64,000 nt of DNA from the sequence record MH494197.1. One strand, written 5' to 3'. Shown here piece by piece: positions 2,720 to 20,608 of this stretch. Position 1 is the first letter of the stretch; each line of letters begins with the position of its first letter. The stretch comes from Escherichia phage CMSTMSU. A program made the position numbers and the translations under genes. The notes beneath the pieces were generated by a model. That model was given only the letters and a program-made list of their open reading frames with translations, was not told where the DNA came from and ran no database searches.

Positions 2720-3181
2720 ATGAATGAAGCAGTAGGTGCTATATTTTTATCTAAAAGTACTGGACATATGATGTTAAACTTGAGATCAGAAAGAAGTACG
2801 TATTCTAACAACTGGGCATTTGTTGGTGGGAAGCTTGAGTATAATGAAACTCCGTTACAGGGTCTTATGCGTGAGATTAAAGAAGAGCTAGGTGATTCTA
2901 TTCCAACGATAATAGATATTATACCATTTGATGTATTCTGTACGAAGAATGGTAAATTTAAATATTATTCATTTGTCATTGTAGTTGAAAATGAATTCGT
3001 ACCTACTTTAAATCATGAGAGTTCGGGTTATGCATGGGTTAAGATTGGCTCATGGCCCAAACCATTACATCCGTGCAAAAACACATTACTTAACACAAAT
3101 TTAATGAAGGATTTCTATTCATTGTGGGAAAGTATACGACAAGGTACACAGTTTGTCAACAGCTTACCATATCGATATTAA
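2720..3181 (+). CDS. NUDIX hydrolase
   Basis: Canonical Nudix box GGKLEYNETPLQGLMREIKEELG (GX5EX7REUXEEXGU). RBS AAGGAGG 7 nt upstream of the ATG. Confidence 0.85.
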   Translation: MNEAVGAIFLSKSTGHMMLNLRSERSTYSNNWAFVGGKLEYNETPLQGLMREIKEELGDSIPTIIDIIPFDVFCTKNGKFKYYSFVIVVENEFVPTLNHESSGYAWVKIGSWPKPLHPCKNTLLNTNLMKDFYSLWESIRQGTQFVNSLPYRY

Positions 3182-3186
3182 TAAAA

Positions 3187-3210
3187 AGGAGCCAATGGCT
3201 CCTTTTTCTT
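3187..3210. terminator. Rho-independent terminator between convergent genes (bidirectional)
   Basis: Hairpin AGGAGCC-AAT-GGCTCCT followed by TTTTTC; A-run on the other side. Confidence 0.6.
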
Positions 3211-4302
3211 TATACCCCAATTAGTGGGATACCTGTTATGTTAAGTAGAACAGATGCTTGAAGCTTAACTGACTCACCTGCCGAAAGGTTGTTTACTATA
3301 CCATCGACGCGGAACCCTAAGTTTTTATTAGAGTTGAGAGAGTTAATCACCCAGTTTTCGTAATCCGCTTTTGTAATACCATTCGGATTTGGGAGAGTTG
3401 GATCAACATCATTAATTACCATAGAAACATCCCAATTCGGGCGACTACTTGTAATTACATCCTTGATTGATTCTAGTTGTGTAATGCGACGTGGATCTGG
3501 AATCTGACTTGCACCAATTGAACCGAAAAATGTACCTTGGTTATCAACATAGAACTGACCTTTAATGAAAAATGTTTTGAATTATACGGAAGAGAAACAA
3601 TTTCACCTGATGAATCACTAACTTCACGAATCATAATTTTCAATTCATAAAAATAGTTACTACCAAATTCAAACACACCAGTACCATTTGTGAATGTTGT
3701 CCAGTTATTTGAATCAACCTGTGAAGTACCACCCATATTGAAGTACGCTAATGGCTTAGTACTGTTACTTTGTGTAAATTCAATATATTTCTTACCTGTA
3801 TCATAGTTGATATCAAGTAGTGTTGAGTACTCTTTATTTTCTGGACGAGATGTTTGAATTTCACGCCATTCTTTATTTTTCATTAGGACACGAAGGAATC
3901 ACCATTACTGGTAAGAACCATACGACCCATAATACTATTTTCACCATCTGGTACTGTGTTGAAAATTGAAATCATTGGGATAGATGCCCAGTCAGCTTCA
4001 GATGCAGTATCTACTGGCTGACGAGCATTATCAACTAATGCAAGAAGTAGTTCGCCAGTGTTGCCAGTATTTCTGTACCAAATCTGACCATTAACGTTAC
4101 CACGAGGTGCAGTAGCTCCACTGAAGTTCTCAACCAAGTGGAGGAAGTTTTCGTTCCATGCTTGACCGTAACCAACTTTATTTCGACCTGCAAAGTTTAA
4201 CGGTACTGGGTTACTACCGTTGGTTTGGTCCTAATATTACGTTATTTGGAATGGTAGCATAAACGCTACCATTACTTCTATAAATTGTATAACTTACACT
4301 CA
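3210..4302 (-). CDS. Structural protein (tail/baseplate-associated?), frame broken into at least 4 pieces
   Basis: Track ORFs 3210..3422, 3473..3883 and 3883..4137 plus N-terminus MSVSYTIYRSNGSVYATIPNN with RBS AAGGTGA at 4302 join across single-base frame changes. Confidence 0.35.
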
Positions 4303-4311
4303 TATCATCAC

Positions 4312-4923
4312 CTTATTATTGTAGTTGGACACGAACTGTGTATTTGATTTGCAAAACACGGTTAGCACTTTTCTCAACTGGGTGAAAAATAATATGGGTA
4401 AGTGGAATACCGCTATCACCATTTGTATATAAACCCAATTCGTCAAATACATATGTCCCATCCATGCTAGTACCAGAGCTAACACCTTGGTCAGATGGCT
4501 CACCTAAACCTAATGTGCAAATACAGACGATATCAGTGTAAGCTTGGCACGGAATGTGAACAGTTGTAATGTTGTTATATTGTGAATCAATACCAGCAGA
4601 GATACGTGGGTTGATTTTTTCAGATAAGTCTGAGAATATAGACCACCGAAAGAAGTAACGCGTGGTTTCTTGTATGTGATACGACCAGTACTCAAAACTA
4701 CTGTTCCACCATTACCAAAACGCATCTCACTAATAGATCCAATAGGAATACCAGTACTATCTTGATTATAAGCCAACGCATTAGCAATAGCAGTACTCAT
4801 ATTTTCAGGGTGAATTGCGTTTGATTTATCCAAAACGATTTTTGGTTAGATGGATCAGTAACGTCAGTAATTAGTACATGACCCTTAACAAATAGTTTTG
4901 GTTGTTCTGTTTCTAATTTCATT
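4312..4923 (-). CDS. Hypothetical structural protein (~200 aa), frameshifted
   Basis: ATG at 4923 (MKLETEQPKLFVKGHV) with RBS AGGA; continues through ORF 4510..4833 and a further frame to a stop near 4312. Confidence 0.35.
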
Positions 4924-4966
4924 TCTAATCCTTAGTAGTTAATTAAAATTTGTTCTAACTTACCAG

Positions 4967-5428
4967 CTAAACTTTTTGTACATCAGATGGATACTTGCTA
5001 ATGTAATCACGGTCAATACCGACTTTCAGATAGGTAAAGTTTCCGGTTAAGGTTTCAGCGAATGTACCAGTTGTACCTTGTTCTCTAATAAGGTCACCGC
5101 CATTTGGGTTAAGAATGACATTATCAGTAAATTCAAGATAGAAGTTGCAGCTTTCGGTAAATTTAATTGGGAACCAATCATCGTCAGATGGATTACTTGC
5201 CAGTGTAGCGAGTACGTAAATTCTACCAATGAAGTTACGTAGGGTAAAGGATATTGTATGTAATCCTGTAGTACTACCATAATAGCCGCCACTAGCTAAT
5301 GGTAATGTTTGTTCGTTCCAATGATAATCTAAGTTAGCAGGATACCAGCTATCTGATTCAGGAAATTCTTGCCATGAACCATCTTTAGTTTTTCTTTTGA
5401 AGAGGAAGTCTTTTGATCTTAATGCCAT
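4967..5428 (-). CDS. Hypothetical protein (153 aa), likely virion-associated
   Basis: Intact ORF in the structural block; no motif recognised. Confidence 0.4.
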   Translation of the reverse strand: MALRSKDFLFKRKTKDGSWQEFPESDSWYPANLDYHWNEQTLPLASGGYYGSTTGLHTISFTLRNFIGRIYVLATLASNPSDDDWFPIKFTESCNFYLEFTDNVILNPNGGDLIREQGTTGTFAETLTGNFTYLKVGIDRDYISKYPSDVQKV

Positions 5429-5537
5429 TGTTAAGCCCTTTTAGTAGTGAACTTTCATTTATTTATTAATGGCAACGAAATGTATTTTGTACTGATAAAT
5501 ATTGGTATATGACATTAACTCATACAAGGGAAATATT

Positions 5538-6663
5538 ATGACAATTTCATTCAACAATGGGTCAGGTGGTTCATGTAATAATTCTGGCATCAAAAGTTTA
5601 GTTATTAACGCTGCTGGACATTTAATTGTAACCTATTCCGACAATACAATCCAAGACCTAGGTCTAGTGGTTGGACAAAATGGTGCTAACGGTAGAAACT
5701 TTTATCCAAATGAGATAGGTTTTGAAGTTCCTAATGAACTCTTCCGTGTTGGTGAAGAACTAGGGTGGTGTTATCTTAGTCTTGCAAACGGCACTAGTAC
5801 TTTATATTTTAAATCAAACGATGCCCAAGAAACAATTAGTACTTGGAACCGTGTAGAGTTTGGTAAAGGTGATACTGGTGAAGCTGGTAAACCATTCCAC
5901 ATTGACAGTTCTGGTACGGCGTTTCCAACAACTGGTCTTTTCGATAATTACACATTCTATAATACTGAAGATGGTAAATTATATTTCTATCAAAGCGTAA
6001 CTGCAACATGGAGTGATGGTATTCCTTTCCGTGGTGAACAAGGTCTACGTGGTCGTTTCCATATTGATAGTACTGGTAGTCAATTCCCAAGCATTGATAA
6101 TCTACCACAAGATTATTGCTTCTATAACACGACAGATGGTAATTTGTATTATGTCGATATCGTAACTACATCATCAACCCCAACTAAAGAGTGGAGTGCT
6201 GGTATCTTATTCCGTGGAAAAGACGGTGAAGAAGGTAAGCAAGGTGAACAAGGTATTCAGGGTGAACGGTAAAGATACAGTTGTTATCATCAACACTATT
6301 GATCATTCATGGACTAACGCATTGTTAGTTATTGGTACATGCCCTGCTGGATACCTAGTAACTAATATCGAAGTTGATATTAACCAAGCATATGATGAAC
6401 CAGTAAATGAAATGTTTGTACGTTTCGGTGGTGAAGCACAAGAAGATATTGGTGGTACTGTAATTGCACCTGTTGATTATTTCGATATCAACCGCAAAAT
6501 GCGTTACATTGTTAACGAAACCAACCACGAAGTATCAAGTAAAGATGAAATCATTTCTTGTGTATTCAATGATTCCGTAAACAACAGTTCATTTGGTGAA
6601 ATGAAGATCGTTTGTACTTTATCATGGCAAGCACCTATTCAGCCTATTCAAGATAACATTTAA
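5538..6663 (+). CDS. Fibre-like protein with three tandem ~55-aa modules each ending in a short collagen-like Gly-X-Y run; one frameshift near 6270
   Basis: Repeats FHIDSxGxxFP...FYNTxDGxLY...WSxGIxFRG followed by GKGDTGEAGKP, RGEQGLRGR and RGKDGEEGKQGEQGIQGE. C-terminal domain continues in ORF 6196..6663. Confidence 0.5.
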
Positions 6664-6705
6664 AGAGGGTTGATAAATGGCAGTTTTTCCAATTTAGAAG
6701 GGACC

Positions 6706-8770
6706 ATGATGCCAACATTCAAGTTGGGTAAACGTGGTGCTTCTATTAATTTTGTAAACGATTCTGTCGCAATCAAAGACTTTTAGGCGAAACGTTCCTA
6801 CCTGTTAAGGTGGGAACTCCTAATGACGATGATTCCGCAGTAAACGTTAGGTATCTTGAAGATAACCCAAATGCTTTATTTGGCGTACTTCCACCAACAA
6901 ATGACATTGGTAAAAATAACAACACTTATTTTCAAGTTGATTCTGAGGGTATTGTTGATATCTTTGCAAAACAAATGATGTTTGGGTAAAATCATTATAC
7001 ATTAATAAAAATGTCCTTTCCAGTGTTAACGGTGCTGATTATATCGGACTTATTACTGGAGGAACACTTCAACAGGCACAGTTTTACATAACACCAGAAG
7101 AGTTTGGTGCAAAGGTGATGGCATCACTGATGACACGGCGGCGTTAACGCATGTGCAGTTTATGCTAAAGAACACAAAATCCAAATTCAAGCTGGTGGTA
7201 ATTATCGTATCAGAACTGCTGTTTATTTGAATGATATTCAATGGTTTGGTGGTACAATCACTGGTAACGGTGGCACAATGGTATCGGTACTGAATAGTAC
7301 AATCCAACAAGCAACATTAACAGGATGTTATTTAAAATTCTTTGGTGGTAATGGTAAATTTTATTTTAATAAATTTATTAATATTACAAGTACTGCTGCA
7401 TTTCTAATGCAAGGTATGACTGAATCAGGTACTATCGACTTCTGCTTTAATGAAATGACACAATGTAAGTACGGTGTTCTTCAGCAAGGCACTGGTGAAA
7501 AATGACAGTTGGGCGTTATTCATACAACCACATCCATGATATATATGGTGATGCAATTGAATTGAACGTAGTCAACTCACATTACCCAGACGGATTTGTA
7601 ATAGAAGGCAACTTGATTGAAAACGTAGATGGTACAAATGCACCAATTCCTCTTTCAAACTGGGGTATTGGTATCGGTGTTGCAGGTTCTGGTCCTTATG
7701 ATGTGAATGCTGATGATTCACAATATGTAAAAAATTCGTTATAAAAATAACCGCTTGTACAATGTCCGTCAATGTATTCACGTTGAGTTGGGTAAAGACT
7801 TTAAAATTCTCAATAATGAAGTTTATCCATCAACGTTGGTATCAATTGGTACTGGTTTGACAACCGCTGGTGTAATTACTTATGGTTCTGTTGATTTTAT
7901 TATTGATGGCCTATCTGGGCATCTATTAAATGATCCATCAGTAACTAACCGTATGGTTTCTATTAACTGGGGCGTAACATCTGGTAAATTTGCTGGTCCT
8001 CCACGAAACTTTAAATTATGTAATCTCCACATTCCTGAGTCGTCTATTATTGTGTATACTTCAGGCTCTGATAATTGGCTAAATACTACTGAACTTTCTA
8101 ATATTACATGTAGTAGAATTCAATGGCGTGGATTGCCGTCATCTTCCAAGTTTAATAATATCAGTACTAAAGAACTTGATGTTATTGGACAACACCTTGC
8201 AACTGAAGGTGAAGGAGGGGCTTATATACTCGCTCTAAATATACATATACCAACTGGACTAATTGTGTTGTTCAAGATGATTGTAACATATCAAAATATA
8301 GTTTCTCAAGAATGTATGTTGACCGTATTGACCAATCATCTAATAACTTTAAAGTAACCACTGCAATTGATGGAACGGGTCATCGTGGACCTGTAGTAAT
8401 ACCTGTAGTTGAACAGTATTACGTGCCTTATGATGTTTTTCCGGTGGGAGATATTTCCCAACAGGAACAATTATCCATAAACAATCAGGTGGAAAATTTA
8501 TTGTTACAGTAGGTGGTTCTTTCTTTGGTCGATATGACACAATTAGACAAACAGTTGCAGGACAAACTTATATCGAAGCATTGGGTGTATCATGGGGTGA
8601 TAATCAATATGCTAAAGCTGCTGGAACCGAAATCCTAATCACAGGAGCAGGGGAAAATGGCGAAGATTTAAAACATATATCACTAGAGCAGTTTATGTTG
8701 TTAATAATGCGTATCGTATCGATATTGCCGATCCGATTGTTACTGCTACCGCAGCAGGGCATTATTGAAA
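6706..8770 (+). CDS. Tailspike / tail fibre with pectate-lyase-3-type beta-helix (putative polysaccharide depolymerase), frameshifted
   Basis: Translation around 7090-7150 gives ITPEEFGAKGDGITDDTAAL, the signature start of pectate_lyase_3 tailspikes. N-terminal module MMPTFKLGKRGAS is shared with the gene at 8850. Track pieces 7227..7505, 7502..7744, 7755..8357, 8312..8512. Confidence 0.55.
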
Positions 8771-8849
8771 GCTGCTCAACCAATAACATATATCACCCTA
8801 TCTTAAAGGAGATTATAAAAATGGCAGTTTTTCTAATTTAGAAGGAACC

Positions 8850-9715
8850 ATGAAGAAGACCTTCATACTTGGTAAAAATGGTGCACAAATTGCCACTAAT
8901 GGTAATGTTGTTCAAATCCAGAACTACACGGGTACACAACTTCTTCCTGTTTCAGCAGGTGACCCAACCGCAAATACACACTTGGTTACATTGGGTTATT
9001 TGAATACACATAGCGGTGGTGGTGGCGGTTCCGGTATTTTACGTGGAACTATTGCACCATCTGAATCAATCGGTGTAGATGGTGACGCTTACTTCTTAGT
9101 TGACAGTACTAATATTATTCAGATCTATATTAAAGACCTTGGTGTTTGGAAGCCTCTCCAAAGCACAACTCCGTACTGATAGTTCTTACGTTACTACTGA
9201 AATCGTTCCTGTATCGGCATTTACATTAGTTCACGGAACAACAGATCAATATACTTATTCTTTACCTGAATCAGTACATGGTCGTGGTCCAGATATTATG
9301 GTTCAGCTACAGGGTGATCCCGGTAACATCCCACTTGACACTGTATTCCAAACTAACGTCACTGTGAGTGGTATTGGTGACATTACGATTGATGTTATTG
9401 GTCAAATTACTGAATACACAAGTGTCAAAGTCAACATCATAGGAGCAACAACAATGACAGTACCTTATAGTAAATTAATTAATATAGCAGATTGGGTAGC
9501 ATCTGGTGATGATTACACCATTACTGTTCCAGCGTCAGAACATAACCAAACACCTGACAATTTGTATATTTCTATATATTCAAATAAAACACCGCAGTAC
9601 AGCAGCATCACCATTTGAACTGGTAATAACCGAAACTCAAATTGATGCAAGTGGTAATGTTACATTCACTTCTGATGAAGCGTTTAGTGGTAAAATAGTA
9701 ATTTCCGGTAAATAA
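8850..9715 (+). CDS. Short tail fibre-like protein with shared N-terminal module and poly-Gly linker, two frameshifts
   Basis: MKKTFILGKNGAQ parallels the 6706 gene start; GGGGGSG linker; continues in ORFs 9100..9618 and 9506..9715. Confidence 0.45.
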
Positions 9716-9721
9716 AAAATA

Positions 9722-9756
9722 ATCCAGACTGCGTTCCATCGAGTCTGGATTTTTAT
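9722..9756 (+). terminator. Rho-independent terminator
   Basis: Hairpin TCCAGACT...AGTCTGGA followed by TTTTT. Confidence 0.6.
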
Positions 9757-9765
9757 ATTAATAAC

Positions 9766-9786
9766 TAAATATATGTATATTAACAA
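9766..9786 (+). promoter_or_regulatory. Conserved 21-nt promoter-like motif TAAATATATGTATATTAACAA, 46 nt upstream of the fibre A start
   Basis: Near-identical copy at 14840..14860 with identical spacing to the fibre B ATG. Confidence 0.4.
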
Positions 9787-9829
9787 GGTCAAATGTATTT
9801 TATGCTTTTGCCTATTTGGAGGGAACTAA

Positions 9830-12800
9830 ATGTACTCGATTAAAACAGATCTAGATATAACTGGTGGTGCAACGGTTGGTAAAGATCTTCTTGTGAAAGG
9901 CGATGCAGTATTCAATAAAAATCTAACAGTTAATGGAACTGTAACTTTTGCTGACGCTGTATTCACTGCAATTGAAGCAGGAACTGTAGACATTTCATCT
10001 ACACTAGATGTTGCTGGTAAAGCATCATTGAATGGTGGAATTGAAGTTCATGGTAATTCCGTAATTGGTAATTTGCCTGTTGGCTCTGATACTGCAACGA
10101 TTAATTCTAATGCACAATTCCAAAGCCCAGTATCAATGGCAGGTAACCTAACACAAACCGCTGGCACTGCTGTACTAAAAGATACCCAAGTGGCATCAAT
10201 GGATGTTCTTGGAACTTCTTCATTTAAAGGTAATATTACTGCTGAAACTGGCACTACCGCAGCATTTGACAAAATAACTGCAACTGATGCAACATTCACA
10301 AACACTGCAACTACTGATATCACATCAACTGGAACTGCAAACTTTAAAGATGTGAATATTTCCGGTACACTAGGTGGAACATTTAGTCTATCTGATGTTA
10401 ATGCAACAACTCTAACTGTTTCTGGTTTAACCAGTCTACAAGGTGGTGTTACATTAGGTTCCAACATTACTGGTGTGAATAGTAGTGCAAACTTCCGTGA
10501 TATTAAAATTGGTTCCAATGCTGCAAACACTAACTACCGTTTGAGCTTTAACTATTCTGCTCCAAGTCTTCGCCCAACTGTAATTCTACAGAACGAAATC
10601 CAATCAGAATTGATGTCTCCAGCTACCCTAAGTGTATTGAAAACTGCATCTTTTGGTGATTCGTCATTATCCACTTTTGGTATTACTGGTAATGGTCTAA
10701 ACAAACTAGATTACCTAACAGTATCTGGTAACTCTGTTCAAGATCCAGCAACTCCACTATTACAAGTAACTTCAGGTAAAACTAAAGTTCATGATTTCGA
10801 AGTAACAGGAACTGCAACTATTCCTAACATTGAAAGTACTGGTACTGCTAATTTTAATAACATCAACGTATCTGGTACACTCGGCGGTACTTTCAGTCTT
10901 GATGATATTGAAGCAAACACTCTAACTGTTTCTGGATTAACTAGCCTTGTTGGTGGTGTAACTTTAGGTGCTGATATTTCCGGTGCTAATAGTACTGCTA
11001 ATTTTAAAGCAGTAAGTTTAGGACAAAACGCAGCCGATGCTAACGTTAAGTATGGTTTTGCTTATTCTGCCCGGTGCTCGTCCAACTGTAATTCTACAAA
11101 ATGAAATTCAGTCTGAACTAGTATCTCCAGCAGTACTAAATGTACAAAAACTGCTACCTTTGGTGATGCATCTCTTGCAACCTATGGTATCACAGGTAAC
11201 GGTCTAAACAAACTAGATTATCTATCTATTACTGGTAATGGTACACAAAGTCCAGCTACCCCACAACTACAAGTAGCTGGTAAATCAGTACTAAATGATG
11301 TTGAATTCACTGGTACTGTAACTGGTCTAACTGTTGATGTGAGTGGACAAGATCTAACTCCTAAATCAGTAGTTGCTGCTGAAGCAATCAAAGGTCAAAC
11401 CCTTGAATCAGTTGGTCAAACCACCGTAGGAACTAACCTACAAGTTGGTGGAACTGCTAATGTTGTTGGTGCACTAACTGGTACTGCTGCTACCTTCACT
11501 GGTGATGTAAGTGCTGCTAAAGGTACTTTCAGTGGTGATGTTAGCGTTACTGGTCAAACTGTAACTGTACGTGATTTAGTAGTAACTGGTACAACTACTG
11601 GTGTAACTGCCCAAGCTGATGTTGATGGTCTTGATATCGCCCCAAATAAAGTTGATGTTACAACAACACTATCTGTTGCTGGGGACACTACTTTAGCTGG
11701 CCTAACTGCTAGTTCAGTAACCAGTACTGGTGATGTTACTGGTGCGTCTGTATCTGGTAATACAGTAACTGCGGCTGGTGCACTATCTGGTGGTTCTCTT
11801 GCAGTAACTGGTGCTGGTTCTATGGCTTCACTAACTGTTCCAAGTATTACTGGTGACACTACTTTTGCTAATAACGTAACTATTACTGGAACACTAACTC
11901 CGAGTAGTATAGATTTAAGCACTACTGATGTAAGTGCTGCTTCTTTAACAACTACTGGTAACGTAACTGTTGGTGGTTCTCTTGCAGTAACTGGTGCTAT
12001 TGATTTGTCTGCTGCTGATGTAGTAACAAAATCAGTTAGTGCAACTAACCCAAGTACATTTGGTGTAATTAATGCATCTTCTGTTGTCGCAACTGGTGAC
12101 GTTTCAGGTGGCACTCTAACTACTACTGGTGCAGCGAAAGTAGGAACACTAACTAGTACTGGTGTAGTATCTGGTTCGCGTTTGTCTTCTGGTACTGCAA
12201 CAATCTCAACTTCTGTAACAGTTCCAACTTTACAAGCTGAAGCTGCTGGTGCTGGTACACTAAATCTAGCAAGTAATGTTGTCGCGGCAAAGATCTAACT
12301 GTCACTGGTGTATTCAAACCTGAAGGTGGTCTTGACCTAACAACTGTTGATATTACTGCAAACTCACTAACTACTACTGCTGATGTTAATGTTGGTGGAA
12401 ACTTAGTAGTTGATGGTACTTTTGACCTAAGTGCTGCTGATGTGTCTGTGAAATCTCTTGCAAGTGCAGAGACAATTACAAGTGCTGGTGTTATTACCGT
12501 TACCGATTCAACCAATACTAGTTCGTTACCTAAAATTACTTCAACTGATGCAACACTCTTTACAGTAAATGCAGGTACTATTAATGCAACTGGCAACAGT
12601 GTACTACAAAGTGTATCAGCTACTCAAGTAACTGCAACTAGTGCTGAATTGACTGGTGTTGGTCTTGGTCTTCAAGTCGATAATGATGCAAACGTTGGTG
12701 GTGCATTATCTGTTGGTGGAATCGCAACTGTTGGTTCTTTAACAACAACTGCTGCTTCTCTTAATATTGCAAAAATACTGCAATCACTGGTGATTTAGCT

Positions 12801-14759
12801 GTATCTGGCACACTAACTGCTGGTTCAATCGACCTAAGCAATACTGATGTAACCGTTAAATCTCTTGATTCACTAGGTAACGCACACATTGCTGGTGACC
12901 TAACTGTAGATGGTGCATTCGACTTAAGTGCAACTAACCTTGTAGCTGCAAGTCTAGCAAGTACTGGTTCTACTACTGTTGGAACTGATCTAGTACTAAC
13001 AACTGGTGTTGTGACTGGTAGCCCAGCTATCTCTGGTAATACAACAATCGGTGGAACTCTTGGTGTAACTGGTGCTGTTAACCTAACTGATATTGTTAAT
13101 ATCGGTAAGAAAGTAACAGTGAGTACTGGTGGTATTCAGGTAGTTGATGGTGGTATCAATACTAACACAATTAACGTTTCTGGTGCTTCTACTCTAGCAG
13201 GAACTTCCATTACTGGAACTTTAGGTGTAACTGGTGCTTCTACTCTAGCAGGTGTATCTGCGACATCACTAACAGTTTCTGGTGACAGTACTGTTCAGAA
13301 ACTAACTGTCCAAGGTGAATTGATCCCACAAGGTGGTCTTGACCTAAGCGGTGCAGACATTACTGCTAATAGTCTAACTACTGCAACAACTATCAATGCA
13401 ACTGGCCTAAGTACTCTAAGTGGTGGTGTTAGTACTTCTACTGTGACTGCATCTGGTCTAGCAACTGTTGGAAGTTTAACTTCTACTGCAAACGCATCAG
13501 TTGGTGGCAATTTGGGTGTAACTGGAACTCTAGATGTTACTGGTGCTACTACTGTATCTTCACTAACAGCTACTGGTGCAGTGAAAACTGGCACAACCCT
13601 AACTGTTGGTACTCCAGTTGGTGAACAACCTGAAACTGTACAGATCATTCCAGATACTTATATTGCTGGTAAATTGCGTGTAATCGGCGGTATTAACGCT
13701 GAAATCGACGTAAGTGGTCAAACACTAGAACCATATGCAATTGAAGCTGCTGCAACACTATCTGCTGTTGGTAACATTACTTCTGGTGCAACCATCGTTT
13801 CTAAAGCTGCAACAATTGGTGATGTTGGTTCACAAAACAACAACCTAACTGTTAATGGTAACGTAGTAACTAATGGTGACTTCACCGTTACTGGTGTACT
13901 AAATGCACAATTGAACCAAGCAGATTCCGATGTAGCTGTTAAATCTTTAACTGCAACTAATAACGTTGCGGCTGGTACTTCAATCACTGCTGGAACATCC
14001 ATCACTGCATCAGGCTTACTAAAAGGTAATTCGTTAGAAGTCACCACTACTGGTTCATTTGGTGGTGCAGTAACTATGTCAAGTGGTGCAAACATCACTG
14101 GTACTGTTGGTATCACTGCTGGTGACCTAACAGTAGGTGGTAATATCTCTGCAACTGGGACTGCTGGATTCGGTGCAACAACCGTTTCTACCATTACAAC
14201 ATCAGGTTTAGCTACACTTGCAAGTGCATCTGTAACTGGTGCTCTAACTGTAGGTGGTACATTAACTGCAAATGGTAACACTGTGATTGGTGATGCTGCT
14301 GCTGATACTTTAACTGTAAATGCAACATCGACATTTAAAGAGAACGCAACATTTGATAAGAACCTAACAGTGACTGGTTCTATTAACACCACCACTGCAA
14401 ACTTCACCACAAACAACATGGTAACTAAGAAATATTCTGTTATCCCTGCTAGTGTTACTGCTTCTACTGCTGCTGTAGGTGGTACTTGGACACCAGATGG
14501 TACTACTAACGTATATCGCTTAACTCTTGACCAAAGTGTTACAATGGATTCCATCGCGGGTCTAATTGGTAGTGGTCAAGCATGTTCAGTGTATATCTAT
14601 GTAACTCCATCTGTTGCTGATACTACTTTCACCTTCGGTGGTGCATACTCTGTAGTTTCTGGTACAGTAAGTGCTGTAGTTGGTCAAACAAGTATTATCC
14701 AAGTAATCTATGATGGTTTCAGTACTGTGTTTGATACCTTCGTTGCACAACGTGTATAA
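9830..14759 (+). CDS. Giant repeat-rich fibre protein A (~1640 aa), reading frame broken at about 11100, 12300 and 12800
   Basis: Track ORFs 9830..11104, 11339..12298, 12442..12798 and 13011..14759 all carry V/T/G/S/A-rich short repeats (xTVxGxxTLxG). RBS GGAGGGA. N- and C-termini are paralogous to fibre B. Confidence 0.6.
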
Positions 14760-14778
14760 CATTTTAAATTAATAATTA

Positions 14779-14860: not shown

Positions 14861-14905
14861 AAGATGGGTTATGAATATATAGTTCATCGTTATAGGAGGG
14901 ACTCT

Positions 14906-17900
14906 ATGTACTCGATTAAAACGGATCTTGATGTATCTGGTAATTCCACGGTAGGTAAGGATCTTTTGGTCAAAGGTAATGCAGTATTCAGTAATGACCT
15001 AACGGTTAATGGGGAAGTGTCTTTTGCTAACGCAGTATTCACTGCAATTACCGCTGGTTCTGTGAATGTCACAGGTGCATTGGATGTTGCTGGTAAGGCA
15101 ACCTTATCCGGTGGTGCTGATGTTTCAGGTGCTGCGACATTTGCAGGAAACATTACTGCTGCTGACGGCACAACTGCAAAATTTGATAACTTAGAAGCTA
15201 ATTCAGGATCATTTAATTCTGTTGAATCAACTGATATTACTTCAACTGGCACAGCAACTTTTAAAGATGTAAACATTTCTGGTACACTTGGTGGTACTTT
15301 TAATCTTTCTGATATTAATGCTACAACACTTAATGTGTCTGGTGCTTCAGCACTAACTGGTTCAGTCACATTGGGTGCAAATATCACTGGTCTTGCAAGT
15401 ACTGCAAACTTCCGTGATATTCGTATCGGGCCTAATGAAGAAGGTCAAGCATATAGACTAAACTTTGGTTACACCGTTCGGACAACGACCAACCGTTCTT
15501 CTACAGAACGAAGTTCAATCCGAACTAATGTCTCCTGCTAAGTTGAATGTTCTACAAACTGCAACATTTGGTGATTCTTCACTTTCAACTTACGGTATTA
15601 CAGGTAATGGTTTAAACAAATTAGATTATGTAACTATTTCTGGTAACGCAATTCAATCACCAACCACTCCTTTACTTGAAGTAACTAAAGGTAAAACTAA
15701 AGTTGTTGATTTAGAAGTGACTGGCGTAGCAACTATTCCTAATATCGAAAGTTCTGGTACTGCAAACTTTAACAACATCAACGTATCTGGTACTATTGGT
15801 GGTAGTTTTGATTTAGATGATATCCAAGCAACAACATTATCAGTATCCGGTGCTTCAGCACTAACTGGTGCAGTTACATTGGGTGCAAACATCACTGGTC
15901 TAGCAAGTACTGCAACATTCAAAGCAATCAATTTGGGTCAAAATACCGCTGATGCTAACGTTAAGCTAGGTTTTGCATATACTGCACCTAGTGCACGTCC
16001 AACAGTCTTGTTAGCAAACGAAGTTCAATCTGAACTAATGTCTCCTGCTAAGTTGAACGTTCTACAAACTGCAACCTTCGGTTCTGCTGCACTATCTACC
16101 TATGGTATTACTGGTAATGGTCTAAACAAATTAGATTATCTAACAATTACTGGTAACGCAACACAAAACCCTGCTACTCCACAACTTCAAGTTGGTGGTA
16201 AAGCAATTCTTAATGATGTTGAATTTACAGGTACTGTAACTGGCCTAACTGTTGATGTGAGTGGACAAGATCTAACTCCTAAATCAGTAGTTGCTGCTGA
16301 AGCAATCAAAGGTCAAACTCTTGAATCAGTTGGTCAAACAACTGTAGGTTCATCTCTACAAGTTGGTGGTACTGCAACTGTTACTGGTGCATTATCTGCT
16401 GCCGCTGGTACTTTCAGTGGTGATGTTAGTGGTTCTAAAGGTATCTTCAGTGATAGCGTATCCGGTACAAGTGCAACCTTTACTGGGGATGTTAGCGGTG
16501 ATAACGCAACCTTTAGTGGCGATTTATCTGCTGTAGCTGGCACTTTCAGTGGTGATGTAACCGTAACTGGTCAAACAATCACTGTTAAAGACTTGGTAGT
16601 AACTGGAACTTCAACTGGTGTAACTGCAATCGCTGACGTTGACGGTCTTGATATTGCTCCAAACAAAGTTGATGTTACAACAACTCTATCTGTTGCTGGT
16701 GAATCAACTCTTGCTGGTGTTACAGCAACTTCAATCAATAGTACTGGTGCAATTGCAGGTACTGCAATTTCTGGCTCTACTATTACAGCAACTGGTGAAA
16801 TTTCTGGTGCATCATCTGTAGTAACTGGTCTTTCTAAATCTGGTAGCGTTGAAACTGGTGCTCTAAAGGCATCTTCTGTTGAAACTGCAATCATTAGCAA
16901 CACTGCTGGTGTGTCAATAACAAACAACACTTCAATTGCAGGTAATCTATCTGTAACTGGAACTGTTACCCCGTGCAATTGACCTAAGTACTACTGATAT
17001 TGATGCTAAGTCTCTAACAACTACTGAAGGTGCTAACATTGGTGGTGACCTAGTTGTTGCAGGTACAGTTGATCTAAGTGCTGCTGACGTTGCTGTTAAA
17101 TCTCTAACCAGTACTGGTGCAGTTATTAGTTCTGAAGGTACAGTAAGTAGTGTTCTACCTAAACTTTCCAGTACTGAAGCTAATATTACCACAGTAACTG
17201 CAACCACTGCAAATGCTACCACACTAAATGTAACTGGTACATCAACTCTAGCTGGTGTTAACGCTTCTGGTGCTATTACTTCTGCAACTAACATTACCGC
17301 TACTGGTGTATTAAAGGTGCATCTGTTGAAACTGCGTCAATCAGCAATGCTGATGGTGTAGCAATTAACAATAACACTACAATCACTGGTAATTTGGACG
17401 TATCTGGGACATTGACCCGTGCAATTGACCTAAGTACTACTGATATTAGTTCTAAGTCTCTAACCACAACTGAAGGTGCTACAATTGGTGGCGATCTTGT
17501 GGTAGCAGGTACTGTTGATCTAAGTGCTGCTGATGTGTCGGTGAAATCTCTTGCAAGTGCAGAGACAATTACAAGTGCTGGTGTTATTACAGTTTCGGAT
17601 ACAGTGAATTCTAGCACTCTACCAAAACTAATTACTACTGATGCAACTATTGGTGCTGTCCATGCAGCTACTATTGAAACAACTGGTTCAAGTACACTAA
17701 AACAAGTATCTGCTACTGAAGTAACAGCTACAAGTATTGTACTAAATTCAGTTGGTGAAGGTTTACGTGTTGACAATAATGCAAACATTAATGGTATATT
17801 AAGTGTTAATAATATTACTTCTACCAATGATACTATTGCAATTGCGAAAAGTGCTGCTATTACTGGTGATCTGACCGTATCTGGAACTGTTACCCCGGTG

Positions 17901-20608
17901 CAATTGACCTAAGTACTACCGATATTAGTTCTAAATCCTAAGTACTACTGAAGGTGCTACAATTGGTGGTGACCTAGTTGTTAATGGTTCAATTGATTTA
18001 AGTTCTTCCAATGTTTCAGCAATTACCCTTGCTAGTTCTGGTAATACTACCGTTGGTGGTAACCTAGTACTAACAACTGGTGTTGTGACTGGCAGCCCAT
18101 CTGTATCTGGTAACCTTTCAGTTGCAGGTACTGCGGCAGTAACTGGTGCAACTACCTAACTGATATCGTAAATATCGGTAAGAAAGTAACTGTAAGCACT
18201 GGTGGTATTCAAGTAGTTGCAGGTGGTATTAATACCGACGCTATATTAGTATCCGGTGATACAACTTTAAACAACACTACTGTAAACACTACCTTAAATG
18301 TAACTGGTCAAAGTACAGTTGCTGCACTAAGTGCTGCATCTTTGAATGTATCTGGTGATAGTACTGTTCAAAACTAACAGTTGAAGGTGAATTGGTTCCA
18401 CAAGGTGGTATCGACCTAACTGGTGCAGATATTTCTGCTAATAGTCTTGCAACTGCTTCAACAATCACTGCAACTGGACTAAGCACACTAAGTGGTGGTG
18501 TAAGTACTACTAATGTTACTGCATCTGGTACAGTGAATGCTGGTAGTTTGGATGTTACTAACAACGCAACCGTTGGTGGTAATTTGGGTGTAACTGGTTC
18601 ATTAACTTCTGGACCATTGAGTGTAACAGGCATTGCGAATATTACTGGTGTAACAACTGTTGGTTCATTGGTTTCCGGTGCTGTATCTGGTAGTACTGGT
18701 ACATTTAGTTCAACATTAGGTGTAACTGGTGCAGCTACATTTGACAATGACGTAACTGTTGAAGGTGTATTCACCCCAGCAGGTGGTTTAGACCTAACAA
18801 CTTCTGATATTACAGCTAAGAGTTTGTCAGTATCTGAAACTATTCACTCTGATGGTGCAGCTTCCTTTGGTGGTAACACAACAGTAGGTGGTACATTGGG
18901 TGTAACTGGTGCAGTAACTGCTCCATCGGCAACCCTAAGCGGTACTGGTACTGCACTAGCAGTAACTAATAATGCAACTATTGGTGGTACATTGGGTGTA
19001 ACTGGTCAAGCAACACTTGGTTCTATAGTAACTTCTGGTGTATCTGCAACAAGTGGCTCTTTCAGTACTACTCTTGGCGTTACTGGTGCTGCGACATTTG
19101 GAAACGATGTAACTGTAGTTGGAACACTAACTCCGGTAGCTTAGATCTAACTGGTGCAGATATCTCTGCTAAAACACTAACTCTATCTGAAACATTAAAT
19201 GCGACAGGTAATACTACCCTTGGTGGAACATTAGGTGTAACTGGTTTAGCAACAATTGGTGGAACACTAACGTCTGGTGCAGTAACTGCTCCATCTGCAA
19301 CCTTGAATGGTTCAGGAACTGGTCTAGCAGTAACTAACAACGCAACCGTTGGTGGTACATTAGGTGTAGTTGGTCAAACAACACTAGGTTCTGTTAAAAC
19401 TGGTGCAACTCTAACAGTTGGTACACCATTAGGTGAGCAGCCTGAAACTGTACAGATTATGCCAGACACTTATATTGCTGGTAAACTACGTGTTGAGGGT
19501 GGTATTAACGCAGATATCGATGTTGGTGGACAAACACTAGAACCGTTTGCAGTAATAGCATCTGATTCTTTATCTTCTGCTGGTAATATTACTGCTGGTG
19601 CGGCAATTATTTCAAGTTCTGCAACAATTGGTGAAGTCGGTTCACAAAACAACAACCTAATCGTTAATGGTAACGTTGTAAACAACGGTAACTTCACTGT
19701 TACTGGTGTACTAAATGCACAATTGAACCAAGCAGATTCCGATGTAGCTGTTAAGTCTTTGACTGCAACTAACAACGTAGCTGCTGGAACCACATTAAGT
19801 GCAGGTACTGCAATTACTGCTGGTACTTCCATCACTGCAACTGGATTACTTAAAGGTAATACTTTATTACTACTACTGGTTCATTTGGTGGTGCAGTAAC
19901 TATGTCAAGTGGTGCAAACATCACTGGTACAGTGGGTATTACTGCTGGTAACCTAACAGTGGGTGGTGATATCTCTGCAACTGGCACTGCTGGATTCGGT
20001 GCAACAACCGTTTCTACAATTACAACATCAGGTTTGGCTACACTTGCAAGTACATCCGTTACTGGTAACGCAACAGTAGGTGGAACACTAGCAGTAACAG
20101 GAGCACTAACTGCGAATGGTAACGTAACATTAGGTGACGCAGCGGCTGACGTTCTAACCGTTAATGCAACTTCATCATTTAAAGAAAATGCTGTGTTTGA
20201 TAAGGCAGTAACAGTAACTGGTGAACTAACCACTACTAATGCTAACTTAACTACTACAACAGTAACTACCAAAAGTATGATGTAATCCCAACTCAAGTTA
20301 CATCATCAGTAATTGCTCCAACCGGAACATGGACTCCAGATGGTACAAGTAACGTGTACTTCATCACTCTAGACCAAGATACCACGTTGGCTCCAATTAC
20401 TGGCCTAATTGGTGGCGGTAAAGCTGCATCAGTATACATCTATGTTAAACAAGATACAACTGGTAACAGAAACTTTACAACTGATGGTACTTATGCTGTT
20501 GTTGATGGTGAACTAAACAAAACTGCTGGTAGCGTGACCATTTACCAAGTAATTTATGATGGTGTAAGTCCAGTTACTGATTTGTTCATTGCACAACGTA
20601 CTGCTTAA
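14906..20608 (+). CDS. Giant repeat-rich fibre protein B (~1900 aa), several frame breaks
   Basis: Starts MYSIKTDLDVSG with RBS TAGGAGGGA. Pieces 15465..16982, 17394..17912, 18392..19144, 19303..19899, 19902..20285 and 20354..20608. Shares long near-identical nucleotide blocks with fibre A. Confidence 0.6.

What the first reader, a model, noticed from the sequence alone, without database searches (positions are those of the whole stretch)
6706..8770. Tailspike with pectate-lyase-type signature: probable capsule or LPS depolymerase
ITPEEFGAKGDGITDDTAAL (around 7090-7150) is the hallmark N-terminal strand of right-handed beta-helix depolymerase domains. It is fused to an N-terminal module shared with the neighbouring fibre at 8850. 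This points to polysaccharide-degrading host recognition and a possible enzyme of applied interest.
Basis: partly seen in the sequence, partly recalled or inferred. Interest (0 to 1): 0.45.

Follow-up and report, generated by a model that had tools for sequence, protein, structure and literature searches.

The report
Known colanic-acid-degrading phage tailspike gene
This is the already characterised colanic-acid-degrading tailspike ("colanidase") gene of a 121Q/PBECO4-like jumbo E. coli phage; it looks broken here only because the assembly dropped single bases in homopolymer runs, so it is ordinary.

Summary
The window is part of an Asteriusvirus (121Q/PBECO4-like jumbo coliphage) genome, 99.2% identical in DNA to phage Ecwhy_1. 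The flagged region does encode a beta-helix depolymerase, but not as one open frame. The gene (true extent 6677-8806, + strand) is interrupted by 12 single-base deletions, mostly in homopolymer runs. One lies inside the quoted motif and another ends it. The same error pattern covers the aligned 49.7 kb (213 deletion versus 18 insertion events against Ecwhy_1), so this is a sequencing or assembly artefact, not a pseudogene.

After repair, the 713-aa protein differs by one residue from Ecwhy_1 "colanic acid-degrading protein". It is 87% identical to PBECO4 ORF547, the published colanic-acid-degrading enzyme. Residues 96-712 match the crystal structure of phage Phi92 colanidase tailspike gp150 (6E0V; E 1e-233, 57% identity). 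An AlphaFold model superposes on 6E0V (TM 0.92), followed by other beta-helix tailspikes.

The substrate is therefore most likely colanic acid rather than K capsule or LPS, probably cut by hydrolysis. The Pfam pectate-lyase-like model matches only below threshold. Verdict: real, correctly interpreted in outline, already known, low interest.

The parts
6677..8806 (+). Colanidase (colanic-acid-degrading) tailspike gene. It encodes 713 aa after repair of 12 single-base deletions, after window positions 6683, 6780, 6967, 7110, 7142, 7498, 7728, 7742, 8216, 8442, 8669 and 8756.
   Evidence: Global alignment to Ecwhy_1 shows 14 one-base gaps and 4 mismatches in 6600-8900. The repaired protein differs from Ecwhy1_205 by one residue. 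PBECO4 ORF547 tblastn hits step through frames 1/3/2/3/2/1/3/2 across the region.
6677..6985 (+). N-terminal module (aa 1-104), a paralogue of the N-terminus of the next gene. It is inferred to be the virion-attachment adaptor.
   Evidence: BLASTP to Ecwhy1_206 gives 41% identity, E 4e-21. The module alone is found in other Rak2-like jumbo phages of Klebsiella, Erwinia, Pectobacterium and Xanthomonas. The CBB_227 homologue was detected in virions by MS (PMC5259590). It has no Pfam or PHROG match of its own, and the AlphaFold model is low-confidence here.
6986..7090 (+). Linker or neck region (aa 105-139). From aa 96 onward the protein is homologous to Phi92 gp150.
   Evidence: The PDB alignment starts at query residue 96. 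pLDDT is 46-62 in this stretch.
7088..7145 (+). The flagged motif ITPEEFGAKGDGITDDTAAV (aa 139-158), which opens the beta-helix. It is interrupted by the deletion after 7110 and followed by the one at 7142.
   Evidence: It matches the start of PF12708 (profile positions 6-86) and PF12218 below threshold. It aligns to VTPEQFGAIGDGVTDDTQAI of Phi92 gp150.
7091..8347 (+). Right-handed parallel beta-helix catalytic domain (about aa 140-560). It contains invariant D294/E297 (GDAIELN, 7547-7567) and H371/E373 (CIHVE, 7773-7787), which are candidate catalytic residues.
   Evidence: AlphaFold pLDDT is mostly above 90, with short repetitive strands. Foldseek finds 6e0v_A at E 7.5e-62, TM 0.92, then Sf6, HK620 and CBA120 tailspikes. 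Invariant columns across 36 homologues, including a WcaM-named protein, come. The catalytic role is inferred, not shown.
8405..8803 (+). C-terminal beta-rich domain(s) (about aa 580-713), homologous to the C-terminus of Phi92 gp150.
   Evidence: The PDB alignment runs to residue 712 only in the repaired frame. The model is confident here. The Phi92-like homologue P0006 carries PF20745 TSP_Ig-like at its C-terminus.
8821..9715 (+). Neighbouring gene (orthologue of Ecwhy1_206, 299 aa, 'virion structural protein') that shares the N-terminal module. It is also frameshifted in the window.
   Evidence: It matches phrog_10468 'virion structural protein' at E 2.6e-92. The same T6 to T5 deletion sits at 8827.

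Best explanation
The region encodes the colanidase tailspike of an Asteriusvirus jumbo coliphage. It has three parts: an N-terminal adaptor of about 104 aa, a right-handed parallel beta-helix that binds and cleaves colanic acid, and a C-terminal beta domain. Colanic acid is the slime exopolysaccharide that E. coli and Salmonella overproduce under envelope stress. By analogy with other tailspikes, the protein is probably a trimer docked to the baseplate or fibre complex through the adaptor. It would then digest the colanic acid layer so that the phage reaches its outer-membrane receptors. Homology, fold and modular architecture are shown here. The substrate, the hydrolytic mechanism, trimerisation, virion attachment and the catalytic residues D294/E297/H371/E373 are inferred from homologues. 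The 12 frame breaks in the window are single-base losses introduced by sequencing or assembly, so the gene is most likely intact in the phage.
For: The DNA is 99.2% identical to Ecwhy_1 and five other Asteriusvirus genomes, where the gene is annotated colanic acid-degrading protein or colanidase tailspike. The repaired protein is 1 aa from Ecwhy1_205. It is 86.8% identical overall, and 88% over aa 96-713, to PBECO4 AGC35227.1. That protein is the 547th CDS of the record, that is ORF547/gp547, which PMC10059673 cites Kim et al. [quoted passage not shown] The match to Phi92 gp150 crystal structure 6E0V/6E0W has E 1e-233 over residues 96-712. [quoted passage not shown] PHROG 6117 'colanic acid degradation' matches at E 2.5e-252. 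The AlphaFold model has mean pLDDT 81.9 (above 90 for most of 140-713) and matches 6e0v_A at TM 0.92, followed by beta-helix tailspikes. Homologues carry the same catalytic module (precomputed PF27800) behind different phage adaptors: P22 head-binding, T7 fibre, TSP1/gp66 N-terminal and tail-collar domains. This is typical of receptor-binding protein cassettes. For the artefact reading, relative to Ecwhy_1 the aligned 49.7 kb of the window (positions 1-49693) has 213 deletion and 18 insertion events. Of the 165 one-base deletions, 100 fall in runs of 4 or more, hitting 31 of 37 runs of length 6. CBB gp227 independently shows T6 where both window genes have T5.
Against: No experiment was done on this exact protein. 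Its catalytic domain is only 88% identical to the PBECO4 enzyme and 57% to Phi92 gp150, so specificity could differ in detail. I could not read Kim et al. 2015 or Xu et al. 2025; their content is taken from titles and from citing papers. Virion association of the Asteriusvirus protein is not demonstrated. The phAPEC6 virion proteome list does not contain it, although that record also lacks CDS entries for the gene, so the absence is uninformative. A 2026 cryo-EM study could not fit Phi92 gp150 into its fibre density. Three of the 12 deletions in the gene are not in long homopolymers. Without reads, a real frameshift cannot be formally excluded.
Confidence: 0.9

Rival explanations
1. The gene is a genuine pseudogene: this phage lineage has lost its colanidase through accumulated frameshifts.
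For: The window sequence as given has 12 frame breaks and no ORF longer than 200 aa in the region. Two or three deletions are outside long homopolymers.
Against: The same excess of deletions runs through the aligned 49.7 kb at a similar density, including essential structural genes: 213 deletions versus 18 insertions, concentrated in homopolymers. There are only 4 substitutions in 2.3 kb, of which one changes an amino acid, so there is no sign of relaxed selection. Six near-identical genomes carry an intact frame, or one break only in vB_Ec-M-J.
Confidence: 0.03
2. It is a beta-helix depolymerase directed at a different polysaccharide, such as a K capsule or an O antigen, or it acts as a lyase, as the 'pectate-lyase' signature suggests.
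For: Beta-helix tailspikes change specificity readily. PF12708 and PF12218 give weak hits at the motif. Structural neighbours include lyases and epimerases such as 8ja4 and 9ozl.
Against: The protein is 88% identical across the catalytic region to PBECO4 ORF547 and 57% to Phi92 gp150, both reported as colanic-acid-degrading. gp150 is reported to hydrolyse a glycosidic bond. The other structural neighbours share only 6-13% identity. The family also includes a protein named after WcaM of the colanic acid gene cluster.
Confidence: 0.05
3. The enzyme is a soluble, non-virion protein released at lysis (PHROGs files the family under 'moron/auxiliary metabolic gene') rather than a tailspike.
For: The PHROG 6117 category. 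The protein is absent from the phAPEC6 virion MS list. Phi92 gp150 did not fit the fibre density in the 2026 study.
Against: The gene sits inside the tail-fibre gene block between a 'tail protein' and a 'virion structural protein'. Its N-terminal 104 aa are paralogous to that virion protein, whose CBB homologue was found in virions by MS. Homologues carry classical tailspike adaptors. The phAPEC6 record lacks the CDS, so it may not have been searchable by MS.
Confidence: 0.1

Closest known systems
Escherichia phage PBECO4 ORF547 (AGC35227.1), the colanic acid-degrading enzyme (CAE) of Kim et al. 2015, Appl Environ Microbiol 81:900
   Same: It belongs to the same genus (Asteriusvirus) and has the same length (713 aa), the same position in the tail-fibre block and the same N-module plus beta-helix architecture. 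Identity is 86.8% overall, 78% in aa 1-95 and 88% in aa 96-713.
   Different: About 13% of residues differ, and DNA identity is only about 80%. Activity has been tested on the PBECO4 protein, not on this allele.
Phage Phi92 gp150 colanidase tailspike (PDB 6E0V/6E0W)
   Same: Catalytic beta-helix and C-terminal domains match: E 1e-233 and 57% identity over residues 96-712, with model-to-structure TM 0.92. It is reported to hydrolyse colanic acid.
   Different: The N-terminal adaptor is different. Phi92-like proteins are about 804 aa and carry PF26208, whereas this protein has a 104-aa jumbo-phage module. The phage family also differs (Justusliebigvirus, about 148 kb).
Ecwhy_1 gp205, BF17 ORF313, fEgEco12, WPEC3/5 and vB_Ec-M-J colanidase annotations
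   Same: They are essentially the same gene: 98-99% DNA identity, and 1 aa difference to Ecwhy1_205.
   Different: Those records have an open frame (two CDS in vB_Ec-M-J). The window copy has 12 one-base deletions.
WcaM of the bacterial colanic acid gene cluster
   Same: It belongs to the same precomputed Pfam family PF27800, E 1.6e-12, 27% identity over 44% of the query, and shares the invariant D/E/H residues.
   Different: It is a bacterial protein of 428 aa without phage adaptor or C-terminal domains, and its function is not established. Its name has caused several phage records to mislabel this gene 'colanic acid biosynthesis protein'.

Membership tests
Phi92 gp150 / PBECO4 ORF547-type colanidase tailspikes (PHROG 6117; precomputed Pfam PF27800) | Sequence homology across the whole catalytic and C-terminal region | tested here: met
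   phmmer against PDB: 6e0v_A E 1e-233 over residues 96-712. PHROG 6117 E 2.5e-252. 88% identity to PBECO4 ORF547 in aa 96-713. The closest homologues all carry PF27800.
Phi92 gp150 / PBECO4 ORF547-type colanidase tailspikes (PHROG 6117; precomputed Pfam PF27800) | Right-handed parallel beta-helix fold | tested here: met
   AlphaFold2 model of the 99%-identical protein P0001 with a 36-sequence alignment gives pLDDT mostly above 90 for 140-713. Foldseek against PDB gives 6e0v_A at TM 0.92, then Sf6, HK620, CBA120 and Dettilon tailspikes, alginate epimerases and polygalacturonases.
Phi92 gp150 / PBECO4 ORF547-type colanidase tailspikes (PHROG 6117; precomputed Pfam PF27800) | Enzymatic degradation of colanic acid | not testable with these tools
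   Inferred from PBECO4 ORF547 (Kim et al. 2015, via PMC10059673) and Phi92 gp150 (Xu et al. 2025, via PMC13450770). Neither primary paper could be read.
Phi92 gp150 / PBECO4 ORF547-type colanidase tailspikes (PHROG 6117; precomputed Pfam PF27800) | Uninterrupted reading frame (a functional gene) | tested here: inconclusive
   The frame is broken 12 times in the window as given. The pattern is window-wide, deletion-biased and homopolymer-centred, so it is judged an artefact. Reads are needed for proof.
Phi92 gp150 / PBECO4 ORF547-type colanidase tailspikes (PHROG 6117; precomputed Pfam PF27800) | Virion attachment through an N-terminal adaptor (what makes it a tailspike rather than a free enzyme) | tested here: inconclusive
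   The N-module is paralogous to the neighbouring virion protein, whose CBB homologue is MS-verified in virions. The colanidase itself has not been shown in Asteriusvirus virions.
Phi92 gp150 / PBECO4 ORF547-type colanidase tailspikes (PHROG 6117; precomputed Pfam PF27800) | Homotrimeric assembly | not tested
   Only a monomer model was made. Trimer formation is assumed from other tailspikes.
Pfam PF12708 (formerly Pectate_lyase_3; now Pect-lyase_RHGA_epim) | Score at or above the curated gathering threshold (27 bits) | tested here: not met
   17 bits, E 0.0052, covering residues 143-225 only. The motif resembles the start of this model, but the protein is not a member by Pfam's criterion. It shares the fold class only.
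Polysaccharide lyases of the pectate-lyase type (beta-elimination) | Lytic beta-elimination mechanism at a uronic acid | not testable with these tools
   The closest characterised homologue is described as hydrolysing a Glc-Fuc linkage, which argues against a lyase mechanism.

The most novel reading that the evidence does not exclude
The 104-aa N-terminal module, whose first 33 nt are nearly identical in the colanidase gene, in the adjacent 299-aa virion-protein gene and in the homologous gene of Pectobacterium phage CBB, may be an uncharacterised docking and recombination handle of Rak2-like jumbo phages. On this reading the colanidase cassette was inserted in Asteriusvirus by copying that handle, so the two proteins would occupy equivalent sites on the baseplate or fibre complex. 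That would give a route to swapping receptor-binding cassettes in jumbo phages.
Probability: 0.4. Interest if true: 0.3.

Novelty: already known. Interest (0 to 1): 0.1.

Why it matters
Colanidases let phages infect mucoid, colanic-acid-overproducing E. coli, which resist many other phages. They are used as anti-biofilm adjuvants and to make colanic acid oligosaccharides. That value is already established for the PBECO4 and Phi92 enzymes, and this allele adds nothing beyond another close variant. The practically useful result is a caution. The window carries systematic single-base deletions, so every gene call, motif and boundary read from it needs frameshift-aware handling.

Tried and rejected
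(1) I treated the region as one ORF and rejected that: table-11 ORFs are fragments in three frames.

(2) I considered stop-codon reassignment or programmed frameshifting as the cause of fragmentation. I rejected it because the breaks are frame changes at single missing bases relative to six near-identical genomes, and they occur window-wide.

(3) The Pfam scan hoped for a clear Pectate_lyase_3 hit. It gave only sub-threshold PF12708 and PF12218 matches. The local Pfam copy lacks PF27800 and PF26208, so I could not obtain their names.

I used the 99%-identical database protein P0001 instead.

(5) I tried to read the primary papers, Kim et al. 2015 (PMC4292498) and Schwarzer et al. 2012 (PMC3457257). 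Neither is held.

(6) I looked for virion-proteome evidence in phAPEC6. It was uninformative because gp254 and gp255 are not annotated in that record although the ORFs are intact.

(7) The N-terminal module alone matched nothing in Pfam or PHROGs.

Full report
**What is in the sequence.** Listing table-11 ORFs over 4000-14000 shows no long ORF between 6706 and 8770. It shows only a chain of + strand fragments of 66-200 aa in all three frames. A three-frame translation shows sensible protein sequence hopping between frames. The quoted motif is itself split.

**Identity of the window.** Megablast of 6600-8900 against the phage collection finds 35 records, nearly all Asteriusvirus (121Q/PBECO4-like jumbo coliphages).
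- Six records are at least 99% identical, with Ecwhy_1 best at 99.2%.
- In those records the region is annotated 'colanic acid-degrading protein' or 'colanidase tailspike'.
- It is flanked upstream by a 'tail protein' or structural protein, and downstream by a 299-aa 'virion structural protein' and the giant tail-fibre genes.

**Nature of the frame breaks.** A global alignment of 6600-8900 to Ecwhy_1 has 4 substitutions and 14 gaps, every gap a single base missing from the window.
- Twelve gaps lie inside the gene, after 6683, 6780, 6967, 7110, 7142, 7498, 7728, 7742, 8216, 8442, 8669 and 8756.
- Nine of the twelve shorten runs of four or more identical bases.
- Over the 49.7 kb that aligns to Ecwhy_1 there are 213 deletion events and 18 insertion events.
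- Of the 165 one-base deletions, 100 are in runs of at least 4. Thirty-one of the 37 length-6 runs and 41 of the 98 length-5 runs are affected.
- This is the signature of homopolymer under-calling, not of gene decay. Only one of the four substitutions changes an amino acid.
- tblastn with the more distant PBECO4 protein follows the coding signal through frames 1/3/2/3/2/1/3/2 without loss of similarity.
- The CBB homologue of the neighbour gene has T6 where both window genes have T5.

I conclude that the gene is intact in the phage. Its true extent is 6677-8806.
The real ATG at 6677 has an AAGAGG Shine-Dalgarno sequence and is put out of frame by the lost T.
- The stop at 8770 is created by the lost G at 8756.
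- The repaired C-terminus (…TAAGALLKAAQPITYITLS) aligns with the C-terminus of Phi92 gp150.

**What the protein is.** The repaired 713-aa protein differs from Ecwhy1_205 by one residue.
- It is 86.8% identical to PBECO4 AGC35227.1, the 547th CDS of that genome. This is ORF547/gp547, for which PMC10059673 cites Kim et al. [quoted passage not shown]
- From my own recollection of that abstract, which I could not re-read, purified ORF547 degraded colanic acid and restored T7 infection of a mucoid mutant.
- Residues 96-712 match the crystal structure of the Phi92 colanidase tailspike gp150 (6E0V/6E0W) at E 1e-233, with 56-57% identity.
- PMC13450770 states that gp150 is a colanic acid-degrading enzyme hydrolysing the beta-1,4 glucose-fucose linkage, citing Xu et al. 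2025.
- PHROG 6117 'colanic acid degradation' matches at E 2.5e-252.

**Fold.**
- The model has pLDDT mostly above 90 from residue 140 to the end, with the short, regular strands of a beta-helix. The N-terminal 135 residues are uncertain.
- Foldseek against the PDB returns 6e0v_A (E 7.5e-62, TM 0.92).
- It then returns Sf6, HK620, CBA120, Dettilon and Klebsiella or Acinetobacter depolymerase tailspikes, alginate epimerases and polygalacturonases.
- The fold is therefore confirmed.
The motif is a fold-class hallmark, not proof of Pfam membership or of a lyase mechanism.

**Modularity.** The N-terminal 104 residues are 41% identical (E 4e-21) to the N-terminus of the next gene. tblastn of the module against the window finds only that second copy.

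Across phages the two parts travel separately.
- The catalytic part occurs in Asteriusvirus (80-99%), Phi92-like Justusliebigvirus (57%), Seunavirus-like phages (37%), J8-65-like podophages (31-33%) and Phapecoctavirus (36% over residues 243-692).
- The N-module alone occurs in other Rak2-like jumbo phages of Klebsiella, Erwinia, Pectobacterium and Xanthomonas.

In the large protein database the catalytic family (precomputed PF27800) sits behind P22 head-binding, T7 fibre, TSP1/gp66 and tail-collar adaptors. The family also includes a protein named WcaM.

In Pectobacterium phage CBB the syntenic block goes directly from the tail protein (gp228) to the 286-aa virion protein (gp227), with no colanidase between them. 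CBB_227 was detected in virions by mass spectrometry. The first 33 nt of the colanidase gene, the neighbour gene and CBB gp227 are nearly identical. The simplest inference is that a colanidase cassette was inserted in the Asteriusvirus lineage behind a copy of the neighbour's N-terminal adaptor.

**Mechanism (inferred).** The adaptor docks a probably trimeric spike to the baseplate or fibre complex. The beta-helix binds colanic acid along its groove and cleaves it, probably by hydrolysis. This strips the slime layer so the phage can reach the cell surface. Seven residues are invariant in all 36 aligned homologues: D294 and E297 (GDAIELN), H371 and E373 (CIHVE), Q272, Q368 and W331. They are candidates for the catalytic and substrate-binding site, but this is untested.

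**Open points.**
- Direct evidence that the Asteriusvirus protein is in the virion is lacking. It is not in the phAPEC6 virion proteome list.
- That GenBank record lacks CDS features for gp254 and gp255 although both ORFs are intact, so the absence is uninformative.
- A 2026 cryo-EM study could not place Phi92 gp150 in its fibre density.

**Verdict.** The gene is already known, annotated in dozens of genomes, biochemically characterised in a congeneric phage and structurally solved in a homologue. Interest is low.

Noticed in passing
window 1-49693 (the part aligned to Ecwhy_1): There is a systematic loss of single bases relative to Ecwhy_1: 213 deletion versus 18 insertion events, concentrated in homopolymers of at least 4 (31 of 37 length-6 runs affected). 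Nearly every gene in the window will look frameshifted, so any first-stage finding based on ORF boundaries here needs repair.
   Followed up: yes
window 6677-6709 and 8821-8853; L006 4001-4034: The first 33 nt (MAVFSNLEGTM) of the colanidase gene and of the next gene are nearly identical to each other and to the start of Pectobacterium phage CBB gp227. Megablast also finds this roughly 64-nt stretch at 91% identity in Erwinia phage Kaldavass and Xanthomonas phage XbC2. This is unusually strong nucleotide conservation across genera. It could be a recombination handle or a translation-initiation element.
   Followed up: partly
L006 (CBB) 2779-4861 versus window 5538-9715: CBB has no gene between the 'tail protein' and the 286-aa virion protein, whereas Asteriusvirus has the colanidase there. 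The colanidase looks like a lineage-specific cassette insertion.
   Followed up: partly
L007 (phAPEC6 MK817115) 3068-5209 and 5226-6122: Intact 713-aa and 298-aa ORFs are present, but the record jumps from gp253 to gp256 with no CDS for them. The published virion proteome therefore cannot speak to whether the colanidase is structural.
   Followed up: partly
L002 (vB_Ec-M-J) 6079-8221: That GenBank record splits the same gene into two 'colanidase tailspike' CDS, which suggests a frameshift error in that assembly as well.
   Followed up: no
Database annotations: Several records name this protein 'colanic acid biosynthesis protein', a name transferred from WcaM. PHROGs files the family under 'moron, auxiliary metabolic gene and host takeover'. 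Both are probably misleading for a tailspike depolymerase.
   Followed up: no
window about 9830-14760 and about 14900-20600: Two giant paralogous fibre genes (orthologues of Ecwhy1_207 and 208, 'long tail fiber proximal subunit') share segments of 73-83% nucleotide identity. Both are fragmented in the window by the same deletions.
   Followed up: no
window about 5538-6663: The upstream 'tail protein' (orthologue of Ecwhy1_204, PHROG 13565) contains a short collagen-like G-x-y stretch (GKDGEEGKQGEQGIQGE; sub-threshold Pfam Collagen hit). It is a candidate docking partner for the N-module proteins.
   Followed up: no
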